Below are positions 40,091 through 60,193 of a stretch of DNA of 64,000 nucleotides, piece after piece; the stretch's first letter is position 1; the number at the start of each line of letters is the position of its first letter. The position numbers and the translations under genes were made by a program. The notes beneath the pieces are model-generated. The model saw nothing but the letters and a program-made list of their open reading frames with translations. It made no database searches and was not told the DNA's origin. Source of the DNA: Escherichia coli. Its GTDB lineage: Bacteria; Pseudomonadota; Gammaproteobacteria; Enterobacterales; Enterobacteriaceae. The DNA is taken from NCBI RefSeq assembly GCF_003019035.1, contig NZ_CP027447.1, one strand, 5' to 3'.

Positions 40091-40467
<377 letters not shown>

Positions 40468-42661: not shown

Positions 42662-43432
42662 TTATTTTTTAAAGGTATCAGCCAGTTTCTGAGTGGCAGA
42701 GCGGAAGACGCCGAGATCGCTGCCGACAGCCACAAACGTCGCCCCCCATTCCAGATAACGACGCGCATCGGCTTCGACCGGTGCGAGGATACCGCTGGGT
42801 TTGCCGTGCGCACTGGCACGGTTAAAAATATGCTGAATTGCTTTTTGTACATCCGGGTGCGAGGCATTGCCGAGATGGCCTAATGCCGCAGCCAGATCGC
42901 TGGGGCCGACGAAGATACCGTCTACGCCTTCGGTAGCGGCAATGGCATCGACGTTATCTACGCCCTGCTGACTTTCTATCTGGACCAGAATGGTGATGTT
43001 CTTGTTCGACTGAGCGAAATAATCCGCCACGGTGCCAAACATATTGGCGCGGTGAGAAACGGAGACGCCGCGAATGCCTTCCGGTGGGTAACGGGTTGAT
43101 GCCACCGCCTGCTCTGCTTCCTCTTTTGTTTCTACAAAAGGAATCAAGAAGTTATAGAAACCGATATCCAGAAGACGCTTTATAATTACCGGCTCGTTGG
43201 TCGGCACTCGCACTACTGGCGCGCTGGCGCTGCCTTTCAGGGCCATTAACTGCGGAATAAACGTGGAGATATCGTTTGGCGCATGTTCGCCATCCAGCAC
43301 CAGCCAGTCAAACCCAGCCAAACCAAGAACTTCAGTGCTAATCGGGTTAGAGAGTGCTGACCAGCAACCAATTTGTACCTGTTTCGCAGCCAGTGCGGCT
43401 TTGAATTTATTCGGGAAAACATCGTTATTCAT
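42662..43432 (-). CDS. garL: 5-keto-4-deoxy-D-glucarate aldolase GarL
   Basis: 256 aa; recognised HpcH/HpaI-type aldolase. Confidence 0.88.
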
Positions 43433-43447
43433 CGCTTATACCTTTGC

Positions 43448-44782
43448 TTATTTCTGCAATTCCATACGTTTAATGTCGCCAACTACGAAGAGGTAGCAGA
43501 CCATCGCCATCAGCGCTGAACATCCCACGAAAACCAGTGCTGCATTGAAGGAGTGCAGTTCACTTACCAGGTAGCCAATCACCAGTGGAGTGACAATGGA
43601 GGCAACATTGCCAAAGACGTTAAAGACGCCGCCGCAGAGGCCAACAATCTCTTTCGGCGCGGTGTCAGAAATCACTGGCCAGCCCAACGCACCAAATCCT
43701 TTGCCAAAGAAAGCCAGCGCCATCAGCATGACCACCAGCGTGGTGTTGTTGGTGTAGTTACATAAGATGATGGTGGAAGCCAGCAACATTCCCAGCACAA
43801 TCGGTAGCTTACGTGCCAGGGTCAGGGATAAACCGCGTTTGATCAGATAATCCGAGAAGACACCTCCCAGCACGCCGCCCGCAAAGCCACACAGTGCCGG
43901 AATCGAGGCGACCAGACCCACTTTCAGAATCGACATGCCTTTTTCCTGCACCAGATAAATTGGGAACCAGGTGAGGAAGAACCAGGTGATGGTGTTGATA
44001 AAATATTGTCCGAAAAATACGCCCAGCATCATGCGGTTAGAGAGCAATTGCTTGATGTAATGCAGTTTGGGACCGCTTGCTGCCGCACTGCCCGGCTTTT
44101 TGTGGTCCATATCGACCACCGCGCCATTTTCTGAGATAAACTTCAGCTCTTCCGCAGACATACGTGGGTGATCTGTCGGGTTATGAATCAACTTGATCCA
44201 CAGCGCCGTCAGCACAAAACCAATCACCCCCATAACGGTGAAGACGTGCTCCCAGCCCCAGGCGAAAGTCAGCCAGCCAAGCAGCGGCGAAAAGAGCGCC
44301 AGCGAGAAATATTGCGCCGAGTTAAAGATGGCGGAGGCAGTACCACGTTCTTTTGTCGGAAACCAGGCGGCGACAATACGGGCGTTCGCCGGGAATGATG
44401 GCGCTTCCGAGAACCCCAGCATAAAGCGCATAAAGAACATGGAGATCCCTGCCCAGGCCAGCGGGAACATATCAACAAAGCCTTGCAGGAAGGTGAACAG
44501 CGACCAGAAAAAGAGGCTGTAGGTGTAAACTTTTTTCGAGCCAAACTTATCAAGCAGCCAGCCGCCGGGAATTTGCATCAGCAGGTAGGCCCAGCCAAAA
44601 GCGGAGAAGATGTAACCCATCGAAACCGCACTTAACTGCAACTCTTTTGCCACTTCGGTACCAGCAATAGACAGCGTTGCACGATCGGCGTAGTTAACGG
44701 CGGTAACAATAAAAATAATCAGTAATATTAAATAGCGGGTATGCACGCCTTTCTTTTTTACGTCAACGGTGTCCAGAATCAT
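43448..44782 (-). CDS. garP: galactarate/glucarate MFS transporter GarP
   Basis: 444 aa MFS membrane ORF; first gene of garPLRK. Confidence 0.88.
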   Translation of the reverse strand: MILDTVDVKKKGVHTRYLILLIIFIVTAVNYADRATLSIAGTEVAKELQLSAVSMGYIFSAFGWAYLLMQIPGGWLLDKFGSKKVYTYSLFFWSLFTFLQGFVDMFPLAWAGISMFFMRFMLGFSEAPSFPANARIVAAWFPTKERGTASAIFNSAQYFSLALFSPLLGWLTFAWGWEHVFTVMGVIGFVLTALWIKLIHNPTDHPRMSAEELKFISENGAVVDMDHKKPGSAAASGPKLHYIKQLLSNRMMLGVFFGQYFINTITWFFLTWFPIYLVQEKGMSILKVGLVASIPALCGFAGGVLGGVFSDYLIKRGLSLTLARKLPIVLGMLLASTIILCNYTNNTTLVVMLMALAFFGKGFGALGWPVISDTAPKEIVGLCGGVFNVFGNVASIVTPLVIGYLVSELHSFNAALVFVGCSALMAMVCYLFVVGDIKRMELQK

Positions 44783-45156
44783 TTTATTTACCTCGGGTAC
44801 TTATGCTGATTTTTATTATTATGGGGAAGGTGTTATTTATGAGTTTTATTTATGCCGTTACGGCAATGAACTCGGGAATTAGTATAAGCAGCGCGAGAAT
44901 AATAATCATTGTGCAAATGCTAATTTAATTAATACTATTTAAATATTATTTTGAGCATATGCACATAAGGTTGCGCGCTAAAGCACAGATTTGCGCTTTA
45001 CCTTGCCGGACGGCACTGCAATCCCTGAAATGATTGACATTGATCACATTTCTGCGTTTAAACTCCTGACATTCTTATTTCACCCAATGAAGTCATTTAT
45101 TTTTAAATGAGACCAGGTCCTCATTTTAATAACCCCTGGCTGGAGAATATTGCACA

Positions 45157-46728
45157 ATGGCCAACATCGAAATCAGACAAGAAACGCCAACTGCGTTTTA
45201 TATAAAAGTTCACGACACAGATAATGTGGCAATTATTGTTAATGATAATGGCCTGAAAGCAGGAACGCGTTTTCCGGATGGGCTGGAATTAATTGAACAT
45301 ATTCCCCAGGGGCATAAAGTCGCATTGCTGGACATTCCAGCTAATGGTGAAATTATTCGTTATGGCGAAGTGATTGGTTACGCCGTGCGCGCAATCCCAC
45401 GCGGAAGCTGGATCGACGAATCAATGGTTGTACTACCGGAAGCGCCGCCGTTACACACGCTGCCACTGGCAACCAAAGTCCCGGAACCCTTACCGCCGCT
45501 GGAAGGATACACCTTTGAGGGCTATCGCAATGCCGATGGCAGCGTGGGCACTAAAAACCTGCTCGGCATCACCACCAGCGTCCACTGTGTAGCAGGCGTG
45601 GTGGACTATGTAGTAAAAATCATTGAACGCGATCTGCTACCGAAATACCCGAACGTCGATGGCGTGGTGGGGCTGAATCATTTGTACGGCTGTGGCGTGG
45701 CGATTAACGCACCGGCGGCAGTTGTGCCTATTCGTACCATCCACAATATTTCGCTGAACCCTAACTTTGGCGGCGAAGTAATGGTGATTGGTCTGGGTTG
45801 TGAAAAGTTGCAGCCTGAGCGCCTGCTGACTGGAACGGATGATGTGCAAGCTATTCCAGTAGAAAGCGCCAGCATTGTCAGTTTGCAGGATGAAAAGCAT
45901 GTCGGCTTTCAGTCCATGGTCGAGGATATTTTGCAGGTCGCCGAACGCCATTTGCACAAACTGAATCGACGGCAGCGAGAAACCTGTCCGGCTTCAGAAC
46001 TGGTTGTCGGCATGCAGTGCGGTGGCAGCGATGCGTTTTCTGGCGTAACGGCAAACCCGGCGGTTGGGTATGCGTCTGATCTACTGGTGCGCTGCGGCGC
46101 AACGGTGATGTTTTCAGAAGTCACGGAAGTGCGTGACGCGATCCATCTGCTGACACCACGCGCAGTGAACGAAGAGGTCGGCAAACGGCTGCTGGAGGAG
46201 ATGGAGTGGTACGATAACTATCTCAATATGGGAAAAACCGACCGCAGCGCCAACCCTTCGCCGGGCAACAAGAAAGGCGGTCTGGCAAATGTGGTGGAGA
46301 AAGCGCTCGGCTCCATTGCTAAATCGGGTAAAAGCGCAATTGTTGAAGTGCTGTCGCCTGGTCAACGCCCGGCTAAACGCGGATTAATTTACGCCGCGAC
46401 GCCAGCCAGCGATTTTGTCTGTGGCACGCAACAGGTGGCTTCGGGTATCACCGTGCAAGTGTTTACGACCGGTCGCGGTACGCCGTACGGCCTGATGGCG
46501 GTACCCGTCATTAAAATGGCAACCCGCACCGAGCTGGCGAACCGCTGGTTTGATTTAATGGATATTAATGCGGGCACCATCGCTACCGGCGAAGAAACTA
46601 TTGAAGAGGTGGGCTGGAAGTTGTTCCACTTTATTCTCGACGTCGCCAGCGGGAAGAAGAAAACCTTCTCAGATCAATGGGGACTGCATAACCAGCTGGC
46701 GGTGTTTAACCCGGCACCGGTGACCTGA
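45157..46728 (+). CDS. garD: galactarate dehydratase GarD
   Basis: 523 aa; related to altronate dehydratase (SAF/UxaA family); divergent from garP. Confidence 0.88.
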
Positions 46729-46876
46729 TTTCTTTTGGAACGTCCCTCGCAAAACATGGCCTTAGTGCCATGTTTTTATTGTTTAAAGTCCCCACGTCCA
46801 TTAATAATGCATTTGCATTACCTTAGTTCAAGCTTATAATTTGAGCAGAAAACAGGCTGTAAAAGGACAGTGAATC

Positions 46877-47212
46877 ATGCCCGCTAATGCTCGCTCTCAC
46901 GCTGTACTGACCACTGAATCAAAGGTCACGATACGCGGACAAACAACTATCCCCGCGCCAGTGCGTGAGGCCTTAAAACTGAAGCCAGGCCTGGACAGCA
47001 TTCATTACGAAATTCTGCCTGGTGGGCAAGTATTTATGTGCCGACTGGGAGATGAACAGGAGGATCATACTATGAATGCATTTTTGCGTTTTCTGGATGC
47101 AGATATCCAGAACAACCCGCAAAAAACTCGTCCATTCAACATTCAACAAGGAAAGAAACTTGTCGCTGGCATGGACGTCAACATTGATGATGAGATTGGC
47201 GACGACGAATAA
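46877..47212 (+). CDS. prlF: antitoxin PrlF (SohA), AbrB/SpoVT-type
   Basis: 111 aa; acidic C-terminal tail (DDEIGDDE); stop overlaps the yhaV start. Confidence 0.88.
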   Translation: MPANARSHAVLTTESKVTIRGQTTIPAPVREALKLKPGLDSIHYEILPGGQVFMCRLGDEQEDHTMNAFLRFLDADIQNNPQKTRPFNIQQGKKLVAGMDVNIDDEIGDDE

Positions 47213-47676
47213 TGGATTTTCCACAAAGGGTTAATGGTTGGGCGCTATATGCTCATCCCTGTTTCCAGGAAACCTACGACGCTTTAGTTGCCGAAGTCGA
47301 GACATTAAAGGGAAAAGATCCTGAAAATTATCAGAGAAAAGCCGCCACAAAGTTATTGGCGGTAGTCCATAAAGTGATTGAGGAGCATATCACGGTCAAT
47401 CCATCATCACCGGCATTCCGTCATGGCAAGTCGTTAGGCTCTGGGAAAAATAAAGACTGGTCACGGGTAAAATTTGGTGCTGGTCGTTATCGTCTCTTCT
47501 TTCGTTATAGTGAAAAAGAGAAAGTCATCATTCTGGGATGGATGAACGATGAAAACACTCTGCGCACCTACGGTAAAAAAACAGATGCCTATACCGTATT
47601 CAGCAAAATGTTAAAAAGAGGACATCCTCCTGCCGACTGGGAAACCCTCACCCGAGAGACAGAAGAAACCCATTGA
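47212..47676 (+). CDS. yhaV: ribonuclease toxin YhaV (RelE/ParE superfamily)
   Basis: 154 aa; ATG overlaps the prlF stop (ATGA-type overlap at 47212). Confidence 0.88.
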   Translation: MDFPQRVNGWALYAHPCFQETYDALVAEVETLKGKDPENYQRKAATKLLAVVHKVIEEHITVNPSSPAFRHGKSLGSGKNKDWSRVKFGAGRYRLFFRYSEKEKVIILGWMNDENTLRTYGKKTDAYTVFSKMLKRGHPPADWETLTRETEETH

Positions 47677-47730
47677 TGGTGTTCACAATGCCCGCCGAAC
47701 GCATTCGTGTTGACCAGCGGGCACCCTTTC

Positions 47731-48540
47731 TCACTCCCCGACCAGAATCACTTCAACCCCAGCCTTTCGCAGGCCTTCCAGACTATCCGCAGGAATGCCT
47801 TCATCAACAATGATCATGTCGATACGTTGAGTATCAATGATCTTATGTAAACTGGAACGATTGAACTTACTGGAATCGGTGACCACGATGATCCGTTCCG
47901 CAACTTCGCACATCCGACGGTTTAAACGGGCTTCATCTTCATTATGCGTGCTGACGCCGCGCTCCAGATCGATCGCATCTACACCAAGAAACAGCATATC
48001 GAAGTGGTAATTTTGCAGCGATTGCTCAGCCTGATCACCGTAAAAAGATTGCGACTGACGGCGCAAATGCCCTCCGGTCATCAGCAGCTCAACGCCTTCC
48101 GCTTCCAGCAACGCATTAGCCACGTTCATACCGTTGGTCATCGCAATTACGTCGGTGTGCTTGCGCATCAGACGAGCAATCTCAAAAGTGGTGGTCCCGG
48201 AATCGAGGATCACCCGATGACCTGGCTGAATCAACTCAACGGCAGCTTTCGCAACGCTGCGTTTCATTGCGGTGTTCAGCGCGCTTTTATCTTCCACTGA
48301 TGGCTCGACTGACGGCGTCGTGCTATCGCAGATCAACGCGCCGCCATAGGCACGCACAGCGATCCCCTGCTTTTCCAGAAACGCCAGATCGTTGCGGATC
48401 GTCACAGTAGATACGCCATACAATGCCGACAGATCGTTAACCTGCACACTTCCTTGCTGGCGCAGGCGTTGAATGATCTGCTCTCGTCGCTCACTGGTGC
48501 CTGTCACTCGCTTCTCGCCTGAAGCGTCGGTATTACTCAT
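47731..48540 (-). CDS. agaR: DeoR-family repressor of the aga regulon, AgaR
   Basis: 269 aa; DeoR-type N-terminal helix-turn-helix and sugar-binding C-terminus. Confidence 0.88.
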
Positions 48541-48788
48541 AGTAAGTCCTTTCGTAAAACTTTCGTTTCATTTCGTTTTGCCTATTAACGCCTTTCTATT
48601 AAGCAAATGCAAGCCCACCTTACCCATTGGCGCAAGCTACTCTCGTTTCAGTGGCTTTCATTATGTTTCTTTTGTGAATCAGATCAGAAAACTATTATCT
48701 TTCGTTTTATTTTTATCTCACCATGGCGCAGTATCAACTGAAACAAAACGAAAGATTAATATCGCAGTAATCTGAACTGGAGAGGAAA
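48541..48788. promoter_or_regulatory. agaR / kbaZ divergent promoter region with repeated CTTTCGTTT-type motifs (AgaR-operator-like)
   Basis: Repeats ctttcgtaaaactttcgtttcatttcgtttt, tctttcgttttat and aaacaaaacgaaag in the intergenic region. Confidence 0.5.
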
Positions 48789-50069
48789 GTGAAACATCTG
48801 ACAGAAATGGTGAGACAGCACAAAGAGGGCAAAACAAATGGGATTTATGCCGTTTGTTCCGCACATCCGCTGGTGCTGGAAGCTGCAATCCGCTACGCCA
48901 GTGCAAACCAAACGCCGTTACTGATTGAAGCAACCTCCAATCAGGTGGACCAGTTCGGCGGTTATACCGGAATGACGCCCGCCGATTTTCGCGGCTTTGT
49001 TTGTCAGCTCGCCGACTCGTTGAATTTCCCACAGGATGCGTTGATTCTGGGTGGCGACCATCTGGGGCCAAACCGCTGGCAAAACCTGCCTGCCGCTCAG
49101 GCAATGGCCAATGCCGATGATTTGATTAAAAGCTACGTGGCGGCAGGATTCAAAAAAATTCACCTTGATTGCAGCATGTCCTGTCAGGACGATCCGATTC
49201 CCTTAACTGATGACATCGTGGCCGAACGCGCCGCTCGTCTGGCGAAAGTGGCGGAAGAAACCTGCCGTGAACATTTTGGCGCGGCCGATCTGGAGTATGT
49301 CATTGGTACCGAAGTGCCGGTGCCTGGCGGCGCGCATGAAACCTTAAGCGAGCTGGCGGTCACCACGCCGGATGCCGCCCGCGCCACACTGGAAGCCCAT
49401 CGCCACGCCTTTGAAAAGCAGGGCCTGAATGCCATCTGGCCACGCATTATTGCCCTGGTGGTTCAACCCGGCGTCGAATTCGATCACACCAACGTTATTG
49501 ATTATCAGCCAGCTAAAGCGACCGCCTTAAGCCAGATGGTCGAAAACTACGAAACGCTGATTTTCGAAGCGCACTCAACCGATTACCAAACGCCGCAATC
49601 GTTGCGCCAGCTGGTGATTGACCACTTTGCCATTCTGAAAGTTGGCCCGGCGCTGACCTTCGCCCTGCGTGAAGCTCTGTTCTCTCTGGCGGCGATTGAA
49701 GAAGAACTGGTACCAGCAAAAGCCTGTTCTGGTCTGCGTCAGGTGCTGGAAAACGTGATGCTCGACCGCCCGGAATACTGGCAAAGCCACTACCACGGTG
49801 ACGGCAACGCGCGTCGTCTGGCGCGTGGTTATAGCTACTCGGATCGCGTGCGCTATTACTGGCCGGACAGCCAGATTGATGACGCTTTCGCTCATCTGGT
49901 TCGTAATCTGGCGGATTCACCAATTCCGCTACCGCTCATCAGCCAGTATTTGCCGCTGCAATACGTGAAAGTTCGCTCCGGCGAGCTGCAGCCAACACCA
50001 CGGGAACTCATTATCAACCATATTCAGGACATCCTGGCGCAGTACCACACAGCCTGTGAAGGCCAATAA
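48789..50069 (+). CDS. kbaZ: tagatose-bisphosphate aldolase non-catalytic subunit KbaZ (AgaZ)
   Basis: 426 aa; recognised sequence. Confidence 0.88.
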
Positions 50070-50091
50070 GCAAAACAAAGAGGAACACGCT

Positions 50092-50565
50092 ATGCCAAAT
50101 ATTGTTTTAAGCCGGATTGATGAGCGTTTGATTCACGGTCAGGTCGGCGTTCAGTGGGTCGGATTTGCGGGGGCAAATCTGGTGCTGGTAGCCAACGATG
50201 AGGTTGCCGAAGATCCGGTACAACAAAACCTGATGGAAATGGTACTGGCAGAAGGGATCGCCGTACGTTTCTGGACGCTGCAAAAAGTCATCGACAACAT
50301 TCATCGCGCCGCCGATCGACAGAAAATCCTGCTGGTTTGTAAAACACCTGCCGATTTCCTGACGCTGGTAAAAGGTGGCGTTCCGGTGAATCGCATTAAC
50401 GTTGGCAATATGCACTACGCCAATGGCAAGCAACAAATCGCCAAAACGGTTTCTGTGGATGCGGGTGATATCGCAGCATTTAACGACCTGAAAGCCGCTG
50501 GGGTGGAATGCTTCGTTCAGGGCGTCCCGACAGAGCCTGCAGTGGACCTCTTTAAATTACTTTGA
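50092..50565 (+). CDS. agaV: PTS N-acetylgalactosamine-specific IIB component AgaV
   Basis: ORF trimmed to MPNIVLSRIDERLIHGQVG... (157 aa); mannose-family IIB. Confidence 0.85.
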   Translation: MPNIVLSRIDERLIHGQVGVQWVGFAGANLVLVANDEVAEDPVQQNLMEMVLAEGIAVRFWTLQKVIDNIHRAADRQKILLVCKTPADFLTLVKGGVPVNRINVGNMHYANGKQQIAKTVSVDAGDIAAFNDLKAAGVECFVQGVPTEPAVDLFKLL

Positions 50566-50575
50566 GGGATTCATC

Positions 50576-51355
50576 ATGGAAATCAGTCTGTTGCAGGCAT
50601 TCGCGTTGGGCATTATCGCCTTTATCGCTGGCCTGGATATGTTTAACGGCCTAACCCATATGCACCGCCCGGTGGTCCTCGGCCCGTTGGTCGGGCTGGT
50701 ACTTGGCGATCTGCATACCGGTATTTTAACCGGCGGTACGCTGGAACTGGTGTGGATGGGGCTGGCCCCGCTGGCGGGCGCACAGCCGCCTAACGTGATT
50801 ATCGGTACTATCGTCGGCACGGCGTTTGCCATTACTACTGGCGTGAAACCCGATGTCGCGGTCGGTGTCGCCGTACCTTTCGCTGTCGCAGTACAGATGG
50901 GGATTACCTTCCTGTTCTCGGTGATGTCCGGCGTGATGTCCCGATGCGACCGGATGGCGGAGAACGCCGATACTCGCGGCATTGAACGCGTGAACTATCT
51001 GGCACTGCTGGCACTCGGCACTTTCTATTTTCTCTGCGCTTTCCTGCCTATCTACTTCGGCGCGGAACATGCAAAAACCATCATTGATGTCCTGCCGCAA
51101 CGATTAATCGACGGCCTCGGCGTCGCGGGCGGCATCATGCCAGCAATCGGTTTTGCCGTGTTGCTGAAAATCATGATGAAAAACGTCTACATCCCCTACT
51201 TCATCCTGGGCTTTGTTGCCGCAGCCTGGCTCAAGTTACCGGTGTTGGCTATTGCTGCCGCTGCGCTGGCGATGGCGCTGATCGACCTGCTGCGTAAATC
51301 TCCTGAACCGACTCAACCTGCGGCACAGAAAGAGGAATTTGAAGATGGCATCTAA
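50576..51355 (+). CDS. agaW: PTS N-acetylgalactosamine-specific IIC component AgaW (full length)
   Basis: 259 aa mannose-family IIC; intact here, whereas K-12 retains only a truncated remnant as I recall. Confidence 0.8.
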   Translation: MEISLLQAFALGIIAFIAGLDMFNGLTHMHRPVVLGPLVGLVLGDLHTGILTGGTLELVWMGLAPLAGAQPPNVIIGTIVGTAFAITTGVKPDVAVGVAVPFAVAVQMGITFLFSVMSGVMSRCDRMAENADTRGIERVNYLALLALGTFYFLCAFLPIYFGAEHAKTIIDVLPQRLIDGLGVAGGIMPAIGFAVLLKIMMKNVYIPYFILGFVAAAWLKLPVLAIAAAALAMALIDLLRKSPEPTQPAAQKEEFEDGI

Positions 51356-52223
51356 TCAAACCACCCTGCCGAACGTCAGCGAAAATGAAGAAACACTGCT
51401 GACTGGCGTCAATGAAAACGTGTATGAAGATCAGAGCATTGGCGCGGAGCTGACGAAAAAAGATATCAACCGCGTCGCCTGGCGTTCCATGTTGTTACAG
51501 GCTTCTTTCAACTACGAACGTATGCAGGCTTCCGGCTGGCTGTACGGCCTGCTGCCAGCACTGAAAAAGATCCACACTAATAAACGCGACCTGGCGCGCG
51601 CTATGAAGGGGCATATGGGTTTCTTCAATACCCATCCGTTTCTGGTGACGTTTGTTATCGGCATTATCCTTGCGATGGAGCGTTCTAAGCAGGACGTTAA
51701 CAGTATTCAGAGCACCAAAATTGCCGTCGGTGCGCCGCTCGGCGGGATTGGCGATGCGATGTTCTGGCTAACGCTACTGCCGATTTGTGGCGGGATAGGT
51801 GCAAGCCTCGCGCTACAAGGCTCTATTCTTGGCGCTGTCGTCTTTATTGTGCTGTTCAACGTGGTGCACCTGGGGCTGCGTTTTGGTCTGGCGCATTATG
51901 CTTACCGCATGGGCGTGGCGGCGATTCCACTCATTAAAGCAAATACCAAAAAAGTCGGCCATGCTGCGTCTATCGTTGGGATGACGGTAATCGGCGCGCT
52001 GGTGGCAACCTATGTTCGTTTAAGCACCACGCTGGAAATCACAGCGGGCGACGCAGTGGTTAAGTTACAGGCTGATGTTATCGACAAACTGATGCCTGCC
52101 TTCTTACCACTGGTCTACACCCTGACCATGTTCTGGCTGGTACGCCGCGGCTGGAGTCCGCTGCGCCTGATTGCAGTTACCGTGGTTCTCGGCATCGTCG
52201 GTAAATTCTGCCATTTCCTTTAA
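51339..52223 (+). CDS. agaE: PTS N-acetylgalactosamine-specific IID component AgaE
   Basis: 294 aa mannose-family IID; start may be a few codons downstream. Confidence 0.8.
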   Translation: MKMASNQTTLPNVSENEETLLTGVNENVYEDQSIGAELTKKDINRVAWRSMLLQASFNYERMQASGWLYGLLPALKKIHTNKRDLARAMKGHMGFFNTHPFLVTFVIGIILAMERSKQDVNSIQSTKIAVGAPLGGIGDAMFWLTLLPICGGIGASLALQGSILGAVVFIVLFNVVHLGLRFGLAHYAYRMGVAAIPLIKANTKKVGHAASIVGMTVIGALVATYVRLSTTLEITAGDAVVKLQADVIDKLMPAFLPLVYTLTMFWLVRRGWSPLRLIAVTVVLGIVGKFCHFL

Positions 52224-52240
52224 ATACAATGAGGTATTAG

Positions 52241-52675
52241 ATGTTAAGTATTATTTTGACAGGGCATGGCGGGTTTGCCAGCGGCATGGAAAAAGCAATG
52301 AAGCAAATCCTCGGCGAGCAATCGCAGTTTATTGCCATCGATTTTCCCGAAACCTCAAGCACCGCGCTGCTTACATCGCAGCTTGAAGAGGCCATCGTCC
52401 AACTGGATTGTGAAGACGGCATTGTTTTTCTGACGGATTTGCTGGGCGGCACGCCGTTTCGCGTAGCTTCAACGCTGGCGATGCAAAAACCGGGCTGTGA
52501 AGTGATCACCGGCACAAATTTGCAACTATTACTGGAAATGGTGCTGGAGCGCGAAGGGTTAAGCGGTGAAGAGTTCCGTGTGCAGGCGCTGGAGTGTGGA
52601 CACCGTGGGCTGACCAGTCTGGTGGACGAACTTGGTCGCTGCCATGAGGAATGTCCGGTCGAGGAAGGAATATGA
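52241..52675 (+). CDS. agaF: PTS mannose-family IIA component AgaF
   Basis: 144 aa; N-terminal MLSIILTGHGGFA IIA-type motif. Confidence 0.8.
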   Translation: MLSIILTGHGGFASGMEKAMKQILGEQSQFIAIDFPETSSTALLTSQLEEAIVQLDCEDGIVFLTDLLGGTPFRVASTLAMQKPGCEVITGTNLQLLLEMVLEREGLSGEEFRVQALECGHRGLTSLVDELGRCHEECPVEEGI

Positions 52676-53805
52676 CACACGTTCTGCGCGCCAGAAGGCT
52701 GCTGACCGAAGAGGGATGGCTCGATGACCATCAGTTGCGTATTGCTGACGGTGTAATCGCAGCAATCGAACCGATTCCAGTGGGCGTGACTGAACGCGAT
52801 GCGGAACTGCTCTGCCCCGCTTACATCGACACCCATGTACACGGTGGTGCGGGCGTTGATGTAATGGATGACGCGCCGGATGCGCTCGACAAGCTGGCAA
52901 TGCACAAGGCACGCGAAGGTGTCGGCAGTTGGTTACCGACCACCGTAACCGCGCCGCTTAATACCATTCATGCGGCGCTGAAACGTATTGCTCTACGCTG
53001 CCAGCGTGGCGGACCTGGTGCGCAAGCGCTGGGGAGTTATCTCGAAGGACCGTACTTCACGCCGCAGAATAAAGGCGCGCATCCGCCGGAGCTGTTTCGC
53101 GAGCTGGAAATTGCCGAGCTGGATCAATTGATTGCCGTTTCTCAGCACACCTTGCGCGTGGTAGCGCTGGCACCAGAAAAAGAAGGGGCATTGCAGGCCA
53201 TCCGCCATCTTAAACAGCAAAACGTACGGGTGATGCTGGGGCATAGCGCGGCGACCTGGCAACAAACCCGTGCCGCGTTTGACGCTGGTGCCGACGGCCT
53301 GGTGCATTGCTATAACGGGATGACAGGTTTACATCACCGCGAACCGGGAATGGTTGGCGCGGGATTAACGAACAAGCGCGCCTGGCTGGAACTGATAGCC
53401 GATGGTCATCATGTACATCCGGCGGCGATGTCGCTGTGTTGTTGCTGTGCGAAAGAGAGAATCGTGCTGATCACCGACGCGATGCAGGCAGCCGGGATGC
53501 CGGATGGTCGCTATACGTTATGTGGTGAAGAAGTGCAGATGCACGATGGCGTTGTCCGTACCGCGTCCGGTGGGCTGGCGGGCAGTACGCTGTCTGTCGA
53601 TGCGGCAGTGCGCAACATGGTCGAGTTGACGGGCGTAACGCCTGCGGAAGCCATCCATATGGCATCGCTGCATCCGGCGCGTATGCTGGGTGTTGATGGT
53701 GTTCTGGGATCGCTTAAACCGGGCAAACGCGCCAGCGTCGTTGCGCTGGATAGCGGGCTGCATGTGCAACAAATCTGGATTCAGGGTCAATTAGCTTCGT
53801 TTTGA
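52672..53805 (+). CDS. agaA: N-acetylgalactosamine-6-phosphate deacetylase AgaA (full length)
   Basis: ORF trimmed to MTHVLRARRLL... (377 aa); start overlaps the agaF stop; NagA-like amidohydrolase. Confidence 0.82.
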   Translation: MTHVLRARRLLTEEGWLDDHQLRIADGVIAAIEPIPVGVTERDAELLCPAYIDTHVHGGAGVDVMDDAPDALDKLAMHKAREGVGSWLPTTVTAPLNTIHAALKRIALRCQRGGPGAQALGSYLEGPYFTPQNKGAHPPELFRELEIAELDQLIAVSQHTLRVVALAPEKEGALQAIRHLKQQNVRVMLGHSAATWQQTRAAFDAGADGLVHCYNGMTGLHHREPGMVGAGLTNKRAWLELIADGHHVHPAAMSLCCCCAKERIVLITDAMQAAGMPDGRYTLCGEEVQMHDGVVRTASGGLAGSTLSVDAAVRNMVELTGVTPAEAIHMASLHPARMLGVDGVLGSLKPGKRASVVALDSGLHVQQIWIQGQLASF

Positions 53806-53874
53806 TGGTTTGCTCCTTTATTGGGCCTTCACTTCCCCCGTAAGGCCTTTCTTTTTCTTTCGTTGTGCTCTGTG

Positions 53875-53940
53875 CAGGGTGTCGGATGCGACGCTGACGC
53901 GTCTTCTTCGACCTACGGTACGCCGCATCCGGCAATCGGT
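53875..53940. repeat. REP-like palindromic repeats
   Basis: gtcggatgcgacgctgacgcgtcttcttcgacc ... acggtacgccgcatccggca. Confidence 0.6.
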
Positions 53941-53989
53941 GAACATAGCGACGTTATCACGCAATCCTTTAATCTTCCCTTGTCTTTTC

Positions 53990-54154
53990 TTTCAATGATC
54001 ACAAATTTCGTTTTATTTCTTTTTTCTCCATTGAACTTTCAGTTTCTTTTCTATAGATTTTAATCAACGAAAGACATCACCAAGTGAAATGAAACGAAAG
54101 GTAAGCGAAAGCGACAACGCCCGACGTCAAGTTCATCAGACTAAGGATTGAGTT
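53990..54154 (+). promoter_or_regulatory. agaS promoter region with AgaR-operator-like repeats
   Basis: AT-rich region with ctttcagtttctttt, gaaatgaaacgaaag and gcgaaagcg motifs similar to those at agaR/kbaZ. Confidence 0.45.
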
Positions 54155-55309
54155 ATGCCAGAAAATTACACCCCTGCTGCTGCCGCAACCGGTACATGGA
54201 CTGAAGAAGAGATCCGCCATCAGCCTCGCGCATGGATCCGTTCACTCACCAACATCGACGCGCTACGTTCCGCGCTCAATAACTTCCTTGAACCGTTACT
54301 GCGCAAAGAGAATCTGCGGGTAATCCTGACCGGAGCCGGAACCTCGGCATTTATCGGTGACATCATCGCGCCGTGGCTCGCCAGCCATACCGGTAAAAAC
54401 TTCAGCGCCGTACCGACCACCGATCTGGTCACTAATCCGATGGACTACCTGAATCCAGCTCATCCGCTACTGTTGATCTCCTTCGGTCGATCCGGCAACA
54501 GCCCGGAAAGCGTCGCCGCCGTGGAACTGGCGAATCAGTTTGTACCGGAATGCTATCACCTGCCGATCACCTGCAACGAAGCGGGCGCTCTTTACCAAAA
54601 CGCGATCAACAGCGACAACGCGTTTGCCCTGCTGATGCCCGCAGAAACGCACGATCGCGGCTTTGCGATGACCAGCAGCATTACCACCATGATGGCCAGC
54701 TGCCTCGCGGTTTTCGCACCTGAGACGATCAACAGCCAGAGCTTCTGCGACGTGGCGGATCGTTGCCAGGCGATCCTGACCTCACTGGGCGATTTCAGCG
54801 CAGGTGTGTTTGGTTACGCACCGTGGAAACGGATCGTTTATCTCGGCAGCGGTGGCTTACAGGGCGCAGCACGCGAGTCGGCGCTGAAAGTACTGGAACT
54901 GACGGCGGGTAAACTGGCGGCCTTTTATGATTCCCCGACCGGATTCCGTCATGGCCCGAAATCGCTGGTCGATAACGAAACGCTGGTGGTGGTGTTTGTC
55001 TCCAGCCACCCTTACACCCGTCAGTATGATCTTGATCTGCTGGCAGAACTCCGCCGCGATAACCAGGCATTGCGCGTAATCGCCATCGCCGCGGAAAGCA
55101 ACGACGTTATTACCGCCGGTCCACATATCATCCTGCCGCCGTCCCGTCACTTTATCGACGTTGAGCAGGCATTTTGCTTCCTGATGTACGCCCAGACATT
55201 TGCACTGATGCAGTCGCTGCACATGGGTAATACGCCGGATACCCCATCAGCCAGTGGCACCGTTAACCGCGTGGTGCAAGGCGTAATCATTCATCCGTGG
55301 CAGGCATAA
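54155..55309 (+). CDS. agaS: SIS-domain galactosamine-6-phosphate deaminase/isomerase AgaS
   Basis: 384 aa; recognised sequence. Confidence 0.88.
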   Translation: MPENYTPAAAATGTWTEEEIRHQPRAWIRSLTNIDALRSALNNFLEPLLRKENLRVILTGAGTSAFIGDIIAPWLASHTGKNFSAVPTTDLVTNPMDYLNPAHPLLLISFGRSGNSPESVAAVELANQFVPECYHLPITCNEAGALYQNAINSDNAFALLMPAETHDRGFAMTSSITTMMASCLAVFAPETINSQSFCDVADRCQAILTSLGDFSAGVFGYAPWKRIVYLGSGGLQGAARESALKVLELTAGKLAAFYDSPTGFRHGPKSLVDNETLVVVFVSSHPYTRQYDLDLLAELRRDNQALRVIAIAAESNDVITAGPHIILPPSRHFIDVEQAFCFLMYAQTFALMQSLHMGNTPDTPSASGTVNRVVQGVIIHPWQA

Positions 55310-56182
<873 letters not shown>

Positions 56183-56348
56183 TCATTAGTTTTTTATGAT
56201 TTATCCCAATGTACTTCCCGATTAATATCGGGAAGTGCCTTAATGGAAAAGGAGATGACTAAACCTTAATAAATACATCAGTACAATATCGCAACAATAA
56301 TATATTTAAAAAAATTATATTATTCAACTTTATGGTGAGGATTACACA

Positions 56349-56825
56349 ATGAGCAGTCCAAATATTCTCTTAACCCGTATTGATAACCGTCTGGTTCACG
56401 GTCAGGTTGGCGTGACCTGGACATCCACCATCGGTGCGAATCTGTTGGTAGTCGTGGATGATGTTGTCGCTAACGATGATATTCAACAGAAATTAATGGG
56501 TATTACCGCAGAAACCTACGGCTTTGGCATTCGTTTCTTTACTATCGAAAAAACCATTAACGTCATCGGCAAAGCTGCACCGCATCAGAAGATCTTCCTG
56601 ATTTGCCGTACGCCACAAACGGTACGTAAATTGGTAGAAGGTGGTATTGACCTGAAAGATGTCAACGTCGGCAATATGCATTTCTCGGAAGGGAAAAAGC
56701 AAATCAGCAGTAAAGTTTATGTCGATGACCAGGATCTCACGGACTTACATTTTATTAAACAACGTGGCGTGAATGTTTTCATTCAGGACGTCCCTGGCGA
56801 TCAAAAAGAACAAATCCCTGACTAA
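56349..56825 (+). CDS. agaB: PTS galactosamine-specific IIB component AgaB
   Basis: 158 aa; paralogous to agaV (ILLTRIDNRLVHGQVGV). Confidence 0.88.
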   Translation: MSSPNILLTRIDNRLVHGQVGVTWTSTIGANLLVVVDDVVANDDIQQKLMGITAETYGFGIRFFTIEKTINVIGKAAPHQKIFLICRTPQTVRKLVEGGIDLKDVNVGNMHFSEGKKQISSKVYVDDQDLTDLHFIKQRGVNVFIQDVPGDQKEQIPD

Positions 56826-56863
56826 ATCTAAAATCGCCTTAATATTGGTTTGAGGTAATAAAA

Positions 56864-57667
56864 ATGCATGAAATAACCCTACTCCAGGGATTATCCCTGG
56901 CGGCGTTAGTTTTCTTTCTGGGGATTGATTTTTGGCTGGAAGCCTTATTTTTATTCCGCCCGATAATCGTTTGTACCCTTACAGGTGCTATTCTCGGTGA
57001 TATTCAGACTGGCTTAATTACCGGTGGCCTGACAGAGTTGGCTTTCGCCGGATTAACCCCTGCAGGTGGTGTTCAGCCGCCCAACCCGATTATGGCGGGT
57101 CTGATGACCACCGTCATTGCATGGTCTACGGGCGTTGATGCCAAAACGGCAATTGGTCTTGGCCTGCCGTTTAGTTTGTTAATGCAGTACGTCATTCTGT
57201 TCTTCTATTCCGCTTTCTCATTATTTATGACCAAAGCCGATAAATGCGCAAAAGAGGCGGATACGGCAGCATTTTCCCGACTTAACTGGACAACGATGCT
57301 CATCGTCGCTTCAGCGTATGCGGTGATTGCTTTCCTCTGTACTTACCTGGCACAAGGGGCGATGCAGGCGCTGGTGAAAGCGATGCCCGCCTGGCTGACC
57401 CACGGCTTTGAAGTGGCTGGCGGTATTCTGCCTGCCGTTGGTTTTGGCTTGCTGCTGCGCGTGATGTTCAAAGCGCAATATATCCCTTACCTGATCGCCG
57501 GTTTCCTGTTCGTTTGCTACATCCAGGTCAGCAACCTGTTGCCGGTTGCCGTGCTGGGCGCAGGCTTTGCGGTGTATGAGTTTTTCAATGCGAAATCCCG
57601 GCAGCAAGCGCAACCGCAGCCCGTTGCCAGTAAAAATGAAGAAGAGGACTACAGCAATGGGATCTGA
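56864..57667 (+). CDS. agaC: PTS galactosamine-specific IIC component AgaC
   Basis: 267 aa; paralogous to agaW. Confidence 0.88.
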   Translation: MHEITLLQGLSLAALVFFLGIDFWLEALFLFRPIIVCTLTGAILGDIQTGLITGGLTELAFAGLTPAGGVQPPNPIMAGLMTTVIAWSTGVDAKTAIGLGLPFSLLMQYVILFFYSAFSLFMTKADKCAKEADTAAFSRLNWTTMLIVASAYAVIAFLCTYLAQGAMQALVKAMPAWLTHGFEVAGGILPAVGFGLLLRVMFKAQYIPYLIAGFLFVCYIQVSNLLPVAVLGAGFAVYEFFNAKSRQQAQPQPVASKNEEEDYSNGI

Positions 57668-58448
57668 AATCAGTAAAAAAGATATCACCCGTCTGGGCTT
57701 TCGTTCGTCACTGCTACAAGCAAGCTTTAACTACGAAAGGATGCAGGCGGGCGGTTTTACCTGGGCGATGTTGCCGATCCTGAAAAAGATTTATAAGGAC
57801 GACAAACCGGGCCTAAGCGCGGCGATGAAAGATAACCTCGAATTTATTAATACCCACCCGAATCTGGTCGGATTTCTGATGGGGTTATTAATTTCGATGG
57901 AAGAAAAAGGAGAAAACCGCGACACCATTAAAGGCCTCAAAGTGGCACTGTTTGGCCCAATCGCCGGGATTGGCGATGCGATTTTCTGGTTTACCTTATT
58001 GCCGATTATGGCGGGAATTTGCTCATCATTTGCCAGCCAGGGAAACTTGCTGGGGCCGATTCTATTTTTCGCCGTTTACCTGCTTATCTTCTTCCTGCGC
58101 GTCGGCTGGACCCACGTCGGTTATTCAGTCGGCGTGAAGGCGATCGATAAAGTGCGAAAGAACTCGCAGATGATTGCTCGTTCGGCAACCATCCTCGGGA
58201 TCACGGTAATCGGCGGGCTGATCGCTTCGTATGTGCATATTAACGTGGTGACATCGTTTGCCATCGACAGTACCCACAGCGTCGCACTGCAGCAGGATTT
58301 CTTCGATAAAGTCTTCCCGAACATTTTACCGATGGCCTACACCCTGCTGATGTATTACTTCCTGCGGGTGAAAAAAGCGCATCCGGTGCTGTTAATCGGC
58401 GTGACTTTTGTGCTCTCTATTGTTTGTTCCGCATTCGGCATTTTGTAA
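57657..58448 (+). CDS. agaD: PTS galactosamine-specific IID component AgaD
   Basis: ORF 57546-58448 trimmed to MGSEISKKDITRLGFRSS... (263 aa); 11 nt overlap with agaC. Confidence 0.85.
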   Translation: MGSEISKKDITRLGFRSSLLQASFNYERMQAGGFTWAMLPILKKIYKDDKPGLSAAMKDNLEFINTHPNLVGFLMGLLISMEEKGENRDTIKGLKVALFGPIAGIGDAIFWFTLLPIMAGICSSFASQGNLLGPILFFAVYLLIFFLRVGWTHVGYSVGVKAIDKVRKNSQMIARSATILGITVIGGLIASYVHINVVTSFAIDSTHSVALQQDFFDKVFPNILPMAYTLLMYYFLRVKKAHPVLLIGVTFVLSIVCSAFGIL

Positions 58449-59216
58449 ATGGAACGAGGCACTGCGTCTGGCGGTGCCTCTTTACTTAAGGAATTTCATC
58501 CTGTGCAAACCCTTCAACAAGTTGAAAACTATACGGCGTTAAGTGAACGTGCCAGCGAATATTTATTGGCCGTGATCCGTAGTAAACCGGATGCCGTGAT
58601 TTGCCTGGCGACCGGAGCCACGCCATTACTGACGTATCATTATCTGGTAGAAAAAATCCACCAGCAGCAGGTTGATGTCAGCCAGCTCACCTTCGTGAAG
58701 CTCGACGAATGGGTGGATCTGCCATTAACAATGCCTGGCACCTGCGAAACTTTCCTACAACAGCATATCGTGCAGCCGCTGGGGCTGCGTGAAGACCAGC
58801 TCATCAGCTTTCGCTCTGAAGAGATAAATGAGACAGAGTGCGAACGGGTAACGAACCTGATTGCGCGCAAAGGCGGTCTGGATTTATGCGTTCTCGGATT
58901 GGGGAAAAACGGTCATCTTGGGCTGAACGAACCGGGAGAAAGCCTGCAACCGGCCTGCCATATCAGTCAACTTGATGCCAGAACACAGCAACATGAGATG
59001 TTAAAAACCGCGGGCCGTCCCGTGACTCGTGGGATCACCTTAGGCCTGAAGGATATTCTCAATACCCGCGAAGTTTTGCTACTGGTGACTGGCGAAGGAA
59101 AGCAGGATGCGACAGAACGTTTTCTCACGGCTAAAGTCTCTACCGCTATCCCGGCTTCGTTTTTATGGCTGCATAACCATTTCACATGCGTGATTGATGA
59201 AATGTGTCGTCGTTAA
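58449..59216 (+). CDS. agaI: putative galactosamine-6-phosphate deaminase/isomerase AgaI (NagB family)
   Basis: 255 aa; ATG immediately follows the agaD stop; NagB/glucosamine-6-P deaminase-like. Confidence 0.82.
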   Translation: MERGTASGGASLLKEFHPVQTLQQVENYTALSERASEYLLAVIRSKPDAVICLATGATPLLTYHYLVEKIHQQQVDVSQLTFVKLDEWVDLPLTMPGTCETFLQQHIVQPLGLREDQLISFRSEEINETECERVTNLIARKGGLDLCVLGLGKNGHLGLNEPGESLQPACHISQLDARTQQHEMLKTAGRPVTRGITLGLKDILNTREVLLLVTGEGKQDATERFLTAKVSTAIPASFLWLHNHFTCVIDEMCRR

Positions 59217-59265
59217 CTCGCCTAGTAAAGGCGTTGTAGCGCTATTCCTGCTGCAACGCCTGTAA

Positions 59266-60129
59266 TCACTCTCCCTGCTGCTCCAGTGCATACTTATACA
59301 GCGCATTTTTCTTCACGCCGTGAATTTCTGCTGCCAGCGCCGCCGCTTTTTTCAGTGGCAGTTCTGCCTGCAACAGCGCCAGCGTGCGCAGGGCATCGGC
59401 GGGTAAGTCTTCTTCCTGTGCTTTATGGCCTTCGACAATCAGTACCATTTCGCCTTTGCGACGGTTTTCATCTTCTTTGACCCACGCCAGCAGCTCGCCA
59501 ACGGGCGCGCCGTGAATGGTTTCCCAGGTTTTGGTCAGCTCACGCGCCAGAACGACGTAGCGGGATTCGCCTAATACCGCAACGATATCTTCCAGGCTAT
59601 CTAACAGACGGTGGGTAGATTCATAAAAAATCAGCGTGCGCGGCTCCGCTTCAATGGCTTTTAGCGCATCACGGCGGCCTTTTGATTTGGCAGGTAAAAA
59701 GCCTTCATAACAAAAACGATCGGATGGTAAACCCGCGGCGCTTAACGCAGTGATAGCAGCACACGGCCCGGGTAGCGGCACCACGCGAATCCCCGCTTCA
59801 CGGCAGGTACGCACCAGATGGTAGCCAGGATCGTTAATTAGCGGCGTTCCGGCATCGGAAACCAGCGCAATGTTTTGCCCCTCTTGCAGCTTCGCCAGCA
59901 GCGTTTCGGCTTTTTGTTGTTCGTTATGGTCGTGCAGCGCAAACAACCGAGCATTAATCCCAAAATGTTGCAGCAATAAACCGGTGTGACGCGTATCCTC
60001 GGCGGCAATCAGATCAACGGCCTGTAATACCTCCAACGCACGCTGGGTGATATCCGCCAGATTGCCGATTGGCGTCGGTACAATGTAAAGCTGGCCCTGA
60101 GAATTATCCGCCGATTGGTGTTGTTTCAT
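59266..60129 (-). CDS. rsmI: 16S rRNA C1402 2'-O-methyltransferase RsmI
   Basis: 287 aa; recognised sequence; divergent from lpoA. Confidence 0.88.
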
Positions 60130-60193
60130 TGTGTCGTCCGTATTGCCGATTTAATATTGAGCATTGCGTAAAAAAAATATCACTGGATACATT

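What the first reader, a model, noticed from the sequence alone, without database searches (positions are those of the whole stretch)
50576..53805. Intact agaW-agaE-agaF-agaA segment: complete N-acetylgalactosamine/galactosamine utilisation cluster
Full-length agaW (259 aa), agaE (294 aa), agaF (144 aa) and agaA (377 aa) are present with overlapping start/stop junctions. From memory, K-12 carries a deletion leaving truncated agaW and agaA and no agaE/agaF, and cannot use N-acetylgalactosamine. This window therefore predicts an Aga-positive strain, as in E. coli C and O157-like backgrounds.
Basis: partly seen in the sequence, partly recalled or inferred. Interest (0 to 1): 0.45.

Follow-up and report, generated by a model that had tools for sequence, protein, structure and literature searches.

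The report
Intact E. coli N-acetylgalactosamine gene cluster
The window carries the complete, undamaged E. coli gene set for importing and breaking down the mucus sugars N-acetylgalactosamine and galactosamine; this is the normal wild-type state found in about nine of ten E. coli genomes, and it is the laboratory strain K-12 that is the exception.

Summary
agaW (50576-51355, 259 aa), agaE (51345-52223, 292 aa), agaF (52241-52675, 144 aa) and agaA (52672-53805, 377 aa) are uninterrupted ORFs. They sit in a complete 13-gene aga/gam cluster, agaR to agaI (47731-59216). K-12 MG1655 lacks window 50952-53256, exactly 2,305 bp, and the junction falls at a 6-bp microhomology (GCGACC).

Minor corrections: agaE is 292 aa, not 294 (the ATG at 51345 has a proper ribosome-binding site, and the AgaE model matches 1-292). 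Only the W/E and F/A junctions overlap.

The interpretation (an Aga-positive genotype) is supported and can be sharpened. None of the published loss-of-function alleles is present (AgaF G91S, AgaC Q8amber, AgaI Q72amber). The genotype is therefore E. coli C- or Nissle-like (Aga+ Gam+), not O157-like (Aga+ Gam-). AgaW is identical to the protein of experimentally Aga+ strains C, EDL933 and Nissle. AgaE is identical to EDL933's. AgaF differs by one conservative residue (V53 for A53).

This is not unusual. 4,931 of 5,426 complete E. coli genomes carry the segment and 371 carry the K-12 junction. The locus, the pathway and the K-12 deletion are all published. Verdict: real, ordinary, already known.

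The parts
47731..48540 (-). [quoted passage not shown]
   Evidence: Intact ORF. The protein is identical to those of K-12, E. coli C and EDL933. Annotated as agaR in the identical SCU-301 sequence.
48557..48757 (.). agaR-kbaZ divergent control region with three AgaR-operator-like sites (48557-48580 +, 48652-48675 +, 48734-48757 -)
   Evidence: The pattern WRMMTTTCRTTTYRTTTYNYTTKK gives 5 hits in 64 kb against 0.15 expected, and all lie here or upstream of agaS.
48789..50069 (+). kbaZ (agaZ), tagatose-bisphosphate aldolase subunit/chaperone (426 aa, GTG start)
50092..50565 (+). agaV, PTS EIIB for N-acetylgalactosamine (157 aa)
   Evidence: NCBIfam NF008508 equivalog, 319.9 bits against a cutoff of 180. 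Pfam PTSIIB_sorb. Identical to the E. coli C protein.
50576..51355 (+). agaW, PTS EIIC for N-acetylgalactosamine (259 aa)
   Evidence: NF040757 AgaW equivalog, 410.8 bits against a cutoff of 300. Pfam EII-Sor. Identical to the proteins of E. coli C, EDL933, Nissle and HS. Related to the solved ManY EIIC (6k1h, E=7e-28).
51345..52223 (+). agaE, PTS EIID for N-acetylgalactosamine (292 aa; ATG start, 11-nt overlap with agaW)
   Evidence: NF040760 AgaE equivalog, 617.6 bits against a cutoff of 500, aligned 1-292 of 292. A ribosome-binding site AAGAGGA lies upstream of the ATG. Identical to the EDL933 protein; V224I relative to E. coli C.
52241..52675 (+). agaF, PTS EIIA shared by the Aga and Gam transporters (144 aa)
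   Evidence: NF040761 AgaF equivalog, 217.5 bits against a cutoff of 130. His9 aligns with the ManX IIA active-site His. Gly91 is present, so this is not the spinach-outbreak G91S allele. There is a single difference, V53 for A53, relative to C, EDL933 and Nissle.
52672..53805 (+). agaA, N-acetylgalactosamine-6-phosphate deacetylase (377 aa; NagA family; ATGA overlap with agaF)
   Evidence: TIGR00221 nagA, 289.2 bits against a cutoff of 225.65. Pfam Amidohydro_1. Full-length match to solved NagA structures. Seven substitutions relative to C and to EDL933, with no stop codons.
50952..53256 (.). The 2,305 bp that K-12 lacks, flanked by the 6-bp direct repeat GCGACC at 50946-50951 and 53251-53256
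   Evidence: BLAST of the window against MG1655. Junction sequences read directly.
53877..53940 (.). REP-like GC-rich palindromic element in the agaA-agaS spacer
   Evidence: Read in the sequence: GGTGTCGGATGCGACGC...ACGCCGCATCCGGCA. It explains the extra short BLAST places per genome (H30). The REP assignment rests on recognising the motif and was not tested with a model.
54002..54103 (.). agaS promoter region with two AgaR-operator-like sites (54002-54025 +, 54080-54103 -)
54155..55309 (+). agaS, galactosamine-6-phosphate deaminase/isomerase (384 aa)
   Evidence: Intact. Annotation. Role from PMC3668189.
55322..56182 (+). kbaY (agaY), tagatose-1,6-bisphosphate aldolase (286 aa)
56349..58448 (+). 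agaB (56349-56825), agaC (56864-57667) and agaD (57657-58448): EIIB, EIIC and EIID of the galactosamine PTS
   Evidence: All intact. AgaC has Gln8, where EDL933 has an amber codon.
58449..59216 (+). agaI (255 aa), NagB-like protein that is dispensable for Aga/Gam growth
   Evidence: Intact, with Gln72 where EDL933 has an amber codon. The C-terminus differs from K-12, C and EDL933 (255 against 251 aa) because the yraHIJK operon is absent downstream. Dispensability from PMC3668189.

Best explanation
This is the ordinary, full-length aga/gam regulon of wild-type E. coli.

Pathway (inferred by homology to strains in which it was shown genetically): AgaV (IIB), AgaW (IIC), AgaE (IID) and AgaF (IIA) form a mannose-family PTS permease that imports N-acetylgalactosamine as the 6-phosphate. 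AgaF also serves as the IIA for the AgaBCD galactosamine permease. AgaA deacetylates GalNAc-6-P, and the housekeeping NagA can substitute for it. AgaS deaminates and isomerises GalN-6-P to tagatose-6-P. Phosphofructokinase, which lies outside the window, phosphorylates it. KbaY with KbaZ cleaves tagatose-1,6-bisphosphate to DHAP and glyceraldehyde-3-P.

Regulation: AgaR represses transcription from operators in the agaR-kbaZ and agaA-agaS spacers.

Prediction: because every gene is intact and free of the known null alleles, the strain should grow on both N-acetylgalactosamine and galactosamine. K-12 differs by a secondary 2,305-bp loss between two GCGACC hexamers.

Shown here: gene integrity, family membership, the K-12 breakpoints and the population frequency. 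Inferred: expression and the growth phenotype.
For: The ORFs are intact. The sequence is identical to the annotated SCU-301 chromosome, with gene order agaR, kbaZ, agaVWEF, agaA (labelled nagA), agaS, kbaY, agaBCD, agaI. NCBIfam equivalog models for AgaV, AgaW, AgaE and AgaF, and the nagA model for AgaA, all score above their curated cutoffs. Pfam finds the IIA, IIB, IIC and IID domains of the mannose family. AgaW is identical to the protein in E. coli C, EDL933 and Nissle. AgaE is identical to EDL933's. AgaF has one conservative change. AgaF G91S, AgaC Q8* and AgaI Q72* are all absent. AgaF His9 aligns with the ManX IIA phospho-His. Five AgaR-operator-like sites lie exactly in the two expected control regions against 0.15 expected by chance. 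The K-12 deletion is mapped to 50952-53256. Published genetics: E. coli C with all 13 genes is Aga+ Gam+; K-12 is Aga- Gam- because of the 2.3-kb deletion; EDL933 is Aga+ Gam- (PMC3668189). A {Delta}agaWEFA strain of E. coli C is listed as Aga- (PMC9628945). A Nissle {Delta}agaWEFA mutant shows a 1-log colonisation defect in mice (PMC3547972).
Against: No phenotype can be measured here. AgaF V53, the seven AgaA substitutions and the 10-12 AgaS substitutions relative to the tested strains have not been tested functionally. The simple sigma-70 scan found no + strand promoter upstream of kbaZ or agaS, though that scan is insensitive to activator-dependent promoters. One paper states that E. coli HS lacks the GalNAc genes, yet an HS genome record shows all 13 annotated intact. 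Whichever is right, this shows that genotype and reported phenotype do not always line up.
Confidence: 0.93

Rival explanations
1. The genes are intact, but the strain is phenotypically Aga-negative or Gam-negative. The cause would be a lineage-specific missense change (for example AgaF V53, or one of the AgaA or AgaS substitutions), or a defect outside the window, that silently inactivates the pathway. The single G91S change in AgaF has this effect in O157:H7 spinach-outbreak isolates.
For: A single missense change in AgaF is known to abolish Aga use (PMC3668189, citing Mukherjee et al. 2008). The window's AgaF, AgaA and AgaS alleles are not identical to those of any experimentally tested strain compared here.
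Against: V53 for A53 is conservative, and it falls at a position that is not conserved between AgaF and ManX IIA. AgaA is dispensable when nagA is present (PMC3668189). All proteins score far above their equivalog cutoffs over their full length. The AgaF protein accession (WP_000948834.1) is the one RefSeq annotates as AgaF in the identical SCU-301 sequence.
Confidence: 0.05
2. The segment is a recent horizontal acquisition or a mosaic, rather than the ancestral state, and K-12 represents the original shorter cluster.
For: None was found. The idea was considered only because the segment is present in some strains and absent from others.
Against: The segment is present in 4,931 of 5,426 genomes, at the same chromosomal position and at core-genome-like divergence of 96.5-98%. 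GC content (0.53-0.58) is continuous with the flanks. K-12 keeps in-register fragments of agaW and agaA joined out of frame at a 6-bp repeat, which is the signature of a deletion and not of an insertion.
Confidence: 0.01

Closest known systems
aga/gam regulon of E. coli C (ATCC 8739), Aga+ Gam+ (Brinkkötter et al. 2000; Hu et al. 2013, PMC3668189)
   Same: The same 13 genes are in the same order and all are intact. AgaR, AgaV and AgaW are identical proteins. AgaE, AgaF, AgaC and AgaD each differ by 1 residue, and AgaA by 7.
   Different: In the window, agaI is followed directly by rsmI, whereas E. coli C has the yraHIJK fimbrial operon in between. As a result AgaI has a different C-terminal tail (255 against 251 aa). 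Nucleotide divergence is about 3%.
aga cluster of E. coli Nissle 1917 (experimentally Aga+; {Delta}agaWEFA mutant has a colonisation defect, PMC3547972)
   Same: The architecture is identical, including the yra-less agaI-rsmI junction and the 768-nt agaI. The AgaR, AgaV and AgaW protein accessions are identical.
   Different: The AgaE, AgaF (A53 in Nissle), AgaA and AgaS alleles differ. The agaI-rsmI junction fragment (window 58950-59500) is 95.8% identical to Nissle's.
aga cluster of E. coli K-12 MG1655 (Aga- Gam-)
   Same: The flanks and the remaining nine genes are collinear at 97-98% identity.
   Different: K-12 lacks 2,305 bp (window 50952-53256). This leaves agaW' (b3134) and 'agaA (b3135) as pseudogenes, with no agaE or agaF. 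K-12 also carries yraHIJK.
aga cluster of E. coli O157:H7 EDL933 (Aga+ Gam-)
   Same: agaVWEFA are intact. AgaW and AgaE are identical proteins.
   Different: EDL933 has amber codons at agaC codon 8 and agaI codon 72 (confirmed; PMC3668189). The window has Gln at both positions.
Mannose-family PTS permease ManXYZ (TC 4.A.6; structures 1pdo, 6k1h)
   Same: The same four-component IIA/IIB/IIC/IID design and Pfam domains. AgaW is related to ManY (E=7e-28) and AgaF to ManX-IIA (E=5e-16), with the active-site His aligned.
   Different: IIA and IIB are separate polypeptides, not a fused IIAB. Substrate specificity differs. One IIA (AgaF) serves two permeases (PMC3668189).

Membership tests
Complete E. 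coli aga/gam regulon (E. coli C type) | Thirteen genes in the order agaR / kbaZ-agaV-agaW-agaE-agaF-agaA / agaS-kbaY-agaB-agaC-agaD-agaI, all as open reading frames | tested here: met
   Each translation has one terminal stop. The order matches the annotations of SCU-301, ATCC 8739 and Nissle.
Complete E. coli aga/gam regulon (E. coli C type) | AgaW, AgaE, AgaF and AgaV meet the curated equivalog models; AgaA meets the NagA-family deacetylase model | tested here: met
   NF040757 410.8/300; NF040760 617.6/500; NF040761 217.5/130; NF008508 319.9/180; TIGR00221 289.2/225.65.
Complete E. coli aga/gam regulon (E. coli C type) | Absence of the published inactivating lesions (K-12 2.3-kb deletion; AgaF G91S; agaC Q8amber; agaI Q72amber) | tested here: met
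   The 2,305 bp are present. AgaF has Gly91, AgaC has Gln8 and AgaI has Gln72. The lesions are listed in PMC3668189.
Complete E. coli aga/gam regulon (E. coli C type) | AgaR repressor plus its operators at the kbaZ/agaR and agaS promoters | tested here: met
   AgaR is identical to the K-12 and E. coli C protein. There are 5 operator-pattern hits, all in the two control regions, against 0.15 expected. The consensus was recalled from Ray & Larson 2004, not re-read.
Complete E. coli aga/gam regulon (E. coli C type) | Growth on N-acetylgalactosamine and on galactosamine as sole carbon source | not testable with these tools
   Needs a growth assay or a Biolog assay of the strain.
Mannose-family PTS (IIA/IIB/IIC/IID) | All four domains are present, including the family-specific IID | tested here: met
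   Pfam EIIA-man, PTSIIB_sorb, EII-Sor and EIID-AGA, all far above their gathering scores.
Mannose-family PTS (IIA/IIB/IIC/IID) | Phospho-accepting histidines in IIA and IIB | tested here: met
   AgaF His9 aligns with the His of ManX IIA in GTHG. AgaV carries RIDERLIHGQV with His15. Which residues are phosphorylated rests on established knowledge of ManX (His10, His175), not on a test here.
K-12-type truncated aga cluster | agaW'-'agaA fusion junction ...TGCGACC|TGGCAACAA... | tested here: not met
   The window has separate full-length agaW and agaA with 2,305 bp between the two GCGACC copies.
O157:H7-type aga cluster (Aga+ Gam-) | Amber codons in agaC (codon 8) and agaI (codon 72) | tested here: not met
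   The window has CAG-encoded Gln at both positions. EDL933 shows stops at both.

The most novel reading that the evidence does not exclude
The K-12 agaW-agaA deletion may not be a one-off event of the laboratory lineage. It could be a microhomology-mediated (GCGACC) loss that segregates in natural E. coli, or even recurs there. The junction is found in 371 of 5,426 complete genomes, including a 5.0-Mb chicken isolate. On this reading the window shows the ancestral substrate for that event. Whether those 371 genomes are one clone (K-12 and its ST10 relatives) or several independent events was not resolved.
Probability: 0.12. Interest if true: 0.2.

Novelty: already known. Interest (0 to 1): 0.07.

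Why it matters
It matters little beyond correct annotation. The result says the strain should use the mucin-derived amino sugars GalNAc and GalN. In E. coli Nissle 1917 this trait contributes measurably to gut colonisation: a {Delta}agaWEFA mutant shows a 1-log defect (PMC3547972). It is also a reminder that K-12 is an atypical reference for this locus. Pipelines that transfer K-12 annotation will miss agaE and agaF and will label agaW and agaA as pseudogenes. RefSeq PGAP also labels agaA as 'nagA'. Nothing here opens a new question.

Tried and rejected
1. Horizontal acquisition or mosaicism of the segment was rejected. GC content is continuous with the flanks, divergence is core-like and the position is conserved in 91% of genomes, and K-12 carries a deletion-type junction.
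2. The sigma-70 promoter and terminator scan of 47600-59400 was uninformative. It found fewer promoter-like sites than the shuffled sequences gave, and none on the + strand upstream of kbaZ or agaS.
3. The whole-window Rfam scan found nothing in the aga cluster. The only hits were rnpB and a borderline ES036 match elsewhere.
4. The ribosome-binding-site spacing fits it and the equivalog alignment covers 1-292.
5. The antisense ORFs inside the segment (for example 52237-52905 on the - strand, 222 aa, and 50557-50982 on the - strand) were treated as mechanical ORFs inside well-supported genes and were not pursued.
6. The literature describes the K-12 event as 'site-specific recombination' (PMC2808357, citing Brinkkötter et al. 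2000). The junction shows only a 6-bp direct repeat (GCGACC) and no recognisable recombinase site. Short-homology illegitimate recombination or replication slippage is therefore the simpler description. No recombinase site was searched for formally.
7. Technical point: loci L002 and L006 were fetched in parallel with other loci and never reached the Python sandbox. MG1655 (L004) and EDL933 (L007) were re-fetched to replace them.
Full report
**What is in the sequence**

The six-frame ORF list and direct translation show four uninterrupted + strand genes inside the reported interval:
- agaW, 50576-51355, 259 aa
- agaE, 51345-52223, 292 aa from the ATG
- agaF, 52241-52675, 144 aa
- agaA, 52672-53805, 377 aa

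Window 44000-59237 is base-for-base identical to the chromosome of E. coli SCU-301 (NZ_CP051751.1, a human rectal-swab isolate). Window 1-44901 differs from it at only 2 positions. RefSeq annotates exactly these genes there, with agaA labelled 'nagA' by PGAP.

- **agaE length.** The ATG at 51345 has an AAGAGGA ribosome-binding site 7 nt upstream, and the AgaE equivalog model aligns 1-292 of 292. So 292 aa is the better call.
- **Junction overlaps.** Only two of the three internal junctions overlap. agaW/agaE overlap by 11 nt and agaF/agaA by 4 nt (ATGA). agaE and agaF are 17 nt apart.

**Family assignments, tested independently of the annotation**

NCBIfam equivalog models score well above their curated cutoffs:

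| Protein | Score (bits) | Cutoff (bits) |
|---|---|---|
| AgaW | 410.8 | 300 |
| AgaE | 617.6 | 500 |
| AgaF | 217.5 | 130 |
| AgaV | 319.9 | 180 |
| AgaA (TIGR00221 nagA model) | 289.2 | 225.65 |

Pfam finds the four domains of a mannose-family PTS: EIIA-man, PTSIIB_sorb, EII-Sor and EIID-AGA. It also finds Amidohydro_1 in AgaA. Solved-structure searches give further relatives:
- AgaW is related to the ManY EIIC (6k1h, E=7e-28).
- AgaF is related to the ManX IIA domain, with AgaF His9 aligned to the active-site His.
- AgaA is related over its full length to NagA deacetylases.

**Surroundings**

The segment sits in a complete 13-gene aga/gam cluster, and every gene is a clean ORF:
- agaR (47731-48540, - strand)
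- kbaZ, agaV, agaW, agaE, agaF, agaA
- agaS, kbaY, agaB, agaC, agaD, agaI (ending at 59216)

I searched for an AgaR-operator consensus that I recalled from Ray & Larson 2004. It gives five matches in the 64-kb window against 0.15 expected by chance. All five lie in the two expected control regions: three in the agaR-kbaZ spacer and two upstream of agaS. The agaA-agaS spacer also holds a REP-like palindrome. GC content is continuous across the segment, and Rfam finds nothing in the cluster.

MG1655 (NC_000913.3) aligns to window 43001-50951 and to 53247-59173. The two pieces overlap by 10 nt in K-12. K-12 therefore lacks 2,305 bp (window 50952-53256): the 3' part of agaW, all of agaE and agaF, and the 5' part of agaA. 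This agrees with its annotated agaW (b3134) and agaA (b3135) pseudogenes.

The breakpoints lie in a 6-bp direct repeat, GCGACC (50946-50951 and 53251-53256). The deleted length is not a multiple of three. [quoted passage not shown] 2000). What the sequence shows is only short microhomology.

**How unusual is the intact state?**

It is not unusual. Of 5,426 complete E. coli genomes:
- 4,931 (91%) hold at least 80% of window 50000-54500 in one place.
- 371 (6.8%) hold the K-12 junction. Most listed examples are K-12 derivatives, but one is a 5.0-Mb chicken isolate.

The intact cluster is the species norm and K-12 is the outlier.

**Predicted phenotype**

Hu et al. (PMC3668189) summarise the genetics:
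- E. coli C, with all 13 genes, is Aga+ Gam+.
- K-12 is Aga- Gam- because of the deletion.
- O157:H7 EDL933 is Aga+ Gam- because of amber codons at agaC codon 8 and agaI codon 72.
- Spinach-outbreak O157:H7 is Aga- because of AgaF G91S.
- agaA is dispensable when nagA is present.
- agaS, not agaI, encodes the GalN-6-P deaminase.

I compared all 13 window proteins with ATCC 8739 (E. coli C), EDL933 and MG1655:
- AgaR and AgaW are identical to the proteins of all strains that have them. AgaV is identical to E. coli C's.
- AgaE is identical to EDL933's and differs by V224I from E. coli C's.
- AgaF has one conservative difference (V53 for A53) and keeps Gly91.
- AgaA has 7 substitutions relative to each strain.
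- AgaC has Gln8 and AgaI has Gln72. The EDL933 stops at both positions were reproduced in the same comparison.

Nissle 1917 is experimentally Aga+, and its {Delta}agaWEFA mutant shows a 1-log colonisation defect in mice (PMC3547972). It has the same architecture and the same AgaR, AgaV and AgaW proteins.

The best-supported prediction is therefore Aga+ Gam+, like E. coli C and Nissle.

**Mechanism**

The following is inferred from homology to genetically characterised strains:
1. AgaVWE, together with AgaF, import GalNAc as GalNAc-6-P. AgaF also energises AgaBCD for GalN.
2. AgaA (or NagA) deacetylates GalNAc-6-P.
3. AgaS deaminates and isomerises the product to tagatose-6-P.
4. Phosphofructokinase, which lies outside the window, phosphorylates it.
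5. KbaY with KbaZ cleaves the bisphosphate.
6. AgaR represses the operons.

**Caveats**

- The phenotype is inferred, not measured.
- The AgaF V53, AgaA and AgaS alleles are untested.
- A simple promoter scan was uninformative.
- One paper says E. coli HS lacks the GalNAc genes, yet an HS genome record shows the whole cluster annotated intact. I could not resolve this discrepancy.

**Verdict**

The feature is real but ordinary and fully described in the literature. Novelty: already known. Interest: low.

Noticed in passing
window 59174-59272 (agaI-rsmI spacer) and the agaI 3' end, about 59170-59216: The yraHIJK fimbrial operon, 5,484 bp in K-12 between agaI and rsmI, is absent and replaced by 99 bp. 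The boundary falls inside the agaI 3' end, so AgaI ends ...HNHFTCVIDEMCRR (255 aa) and not with the 251-aa K-12/C tail. This yra-less junction is in 1,822 of 5,426 genomes, including Nissle 1917.
   Followed up: yes
window about 12160-17260, - strand (between exuR and exuT): A four-gene CS1-type (alternate chaperone-usher) fimbrial operon lies between exuR and exuT, which are adjacent in many strains. About 1,903 of 5,426 genomes have an operon there, but the sampled full-length matches are only about 85.7% identical, and only 5 genomes are at least 99% identical. The window therefore carries a rare, strongly divergent allele compared with 2-3% core divergence.
   Followed up: partly
K-12-type junction (no window coordinates; corresponds to 50951|53257): The K-12 agaW'-'agaA junction occurs in 371 of 5,426 complete genomes, and not only in laboratory K-12 derivatives. 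One example is chicken isolate TUM12357, with a 5.03-Mb genome. Whether this reflects one clone or recurrent events was not determined.
   Followed up: partly
L009 (E. coli HS, NZ_CP185286.1), whole aga cluster: [quoted passage not shown] However, this HS genome record has all 13 aga genes annotated as intact, and several proteins are identical to those of E. coli C. The discrepancy is unexplained.
   Followed up: partly
window 53877-53940: A REP-like GC-rich palindrome lies in the agaA-agaS spacer. It produces short extra BLAST matches elsewhere in E. coli genomes.
   Followed up: no
window about 60170-60177 (rsmI-lpoA spacer): This is the only indel relative to strain SCU-301 in the compared stretch: an A8 run in the window against A7 in SCU-301. 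There are also single mismatches at 12755, 39071 and 59238.
   Followed up: yes
window 40091-40467 (-) and 21971-22011 (+): Rfam finds RNase P RNA (rnpB, 318.6 bits). It also finds a borderline ES036 sRNA match (38.4 bits against a gathering score of 37.6), which by the SCU-301 coordinate map lies between yqjC and yqjD; that location was not checked directly.
   Followed up: no
window 46877-47676: The prlF-yhaV type II toxin-antitoxin pair lies immediately upstream of agaR, as in K-12.
   Followed up: no
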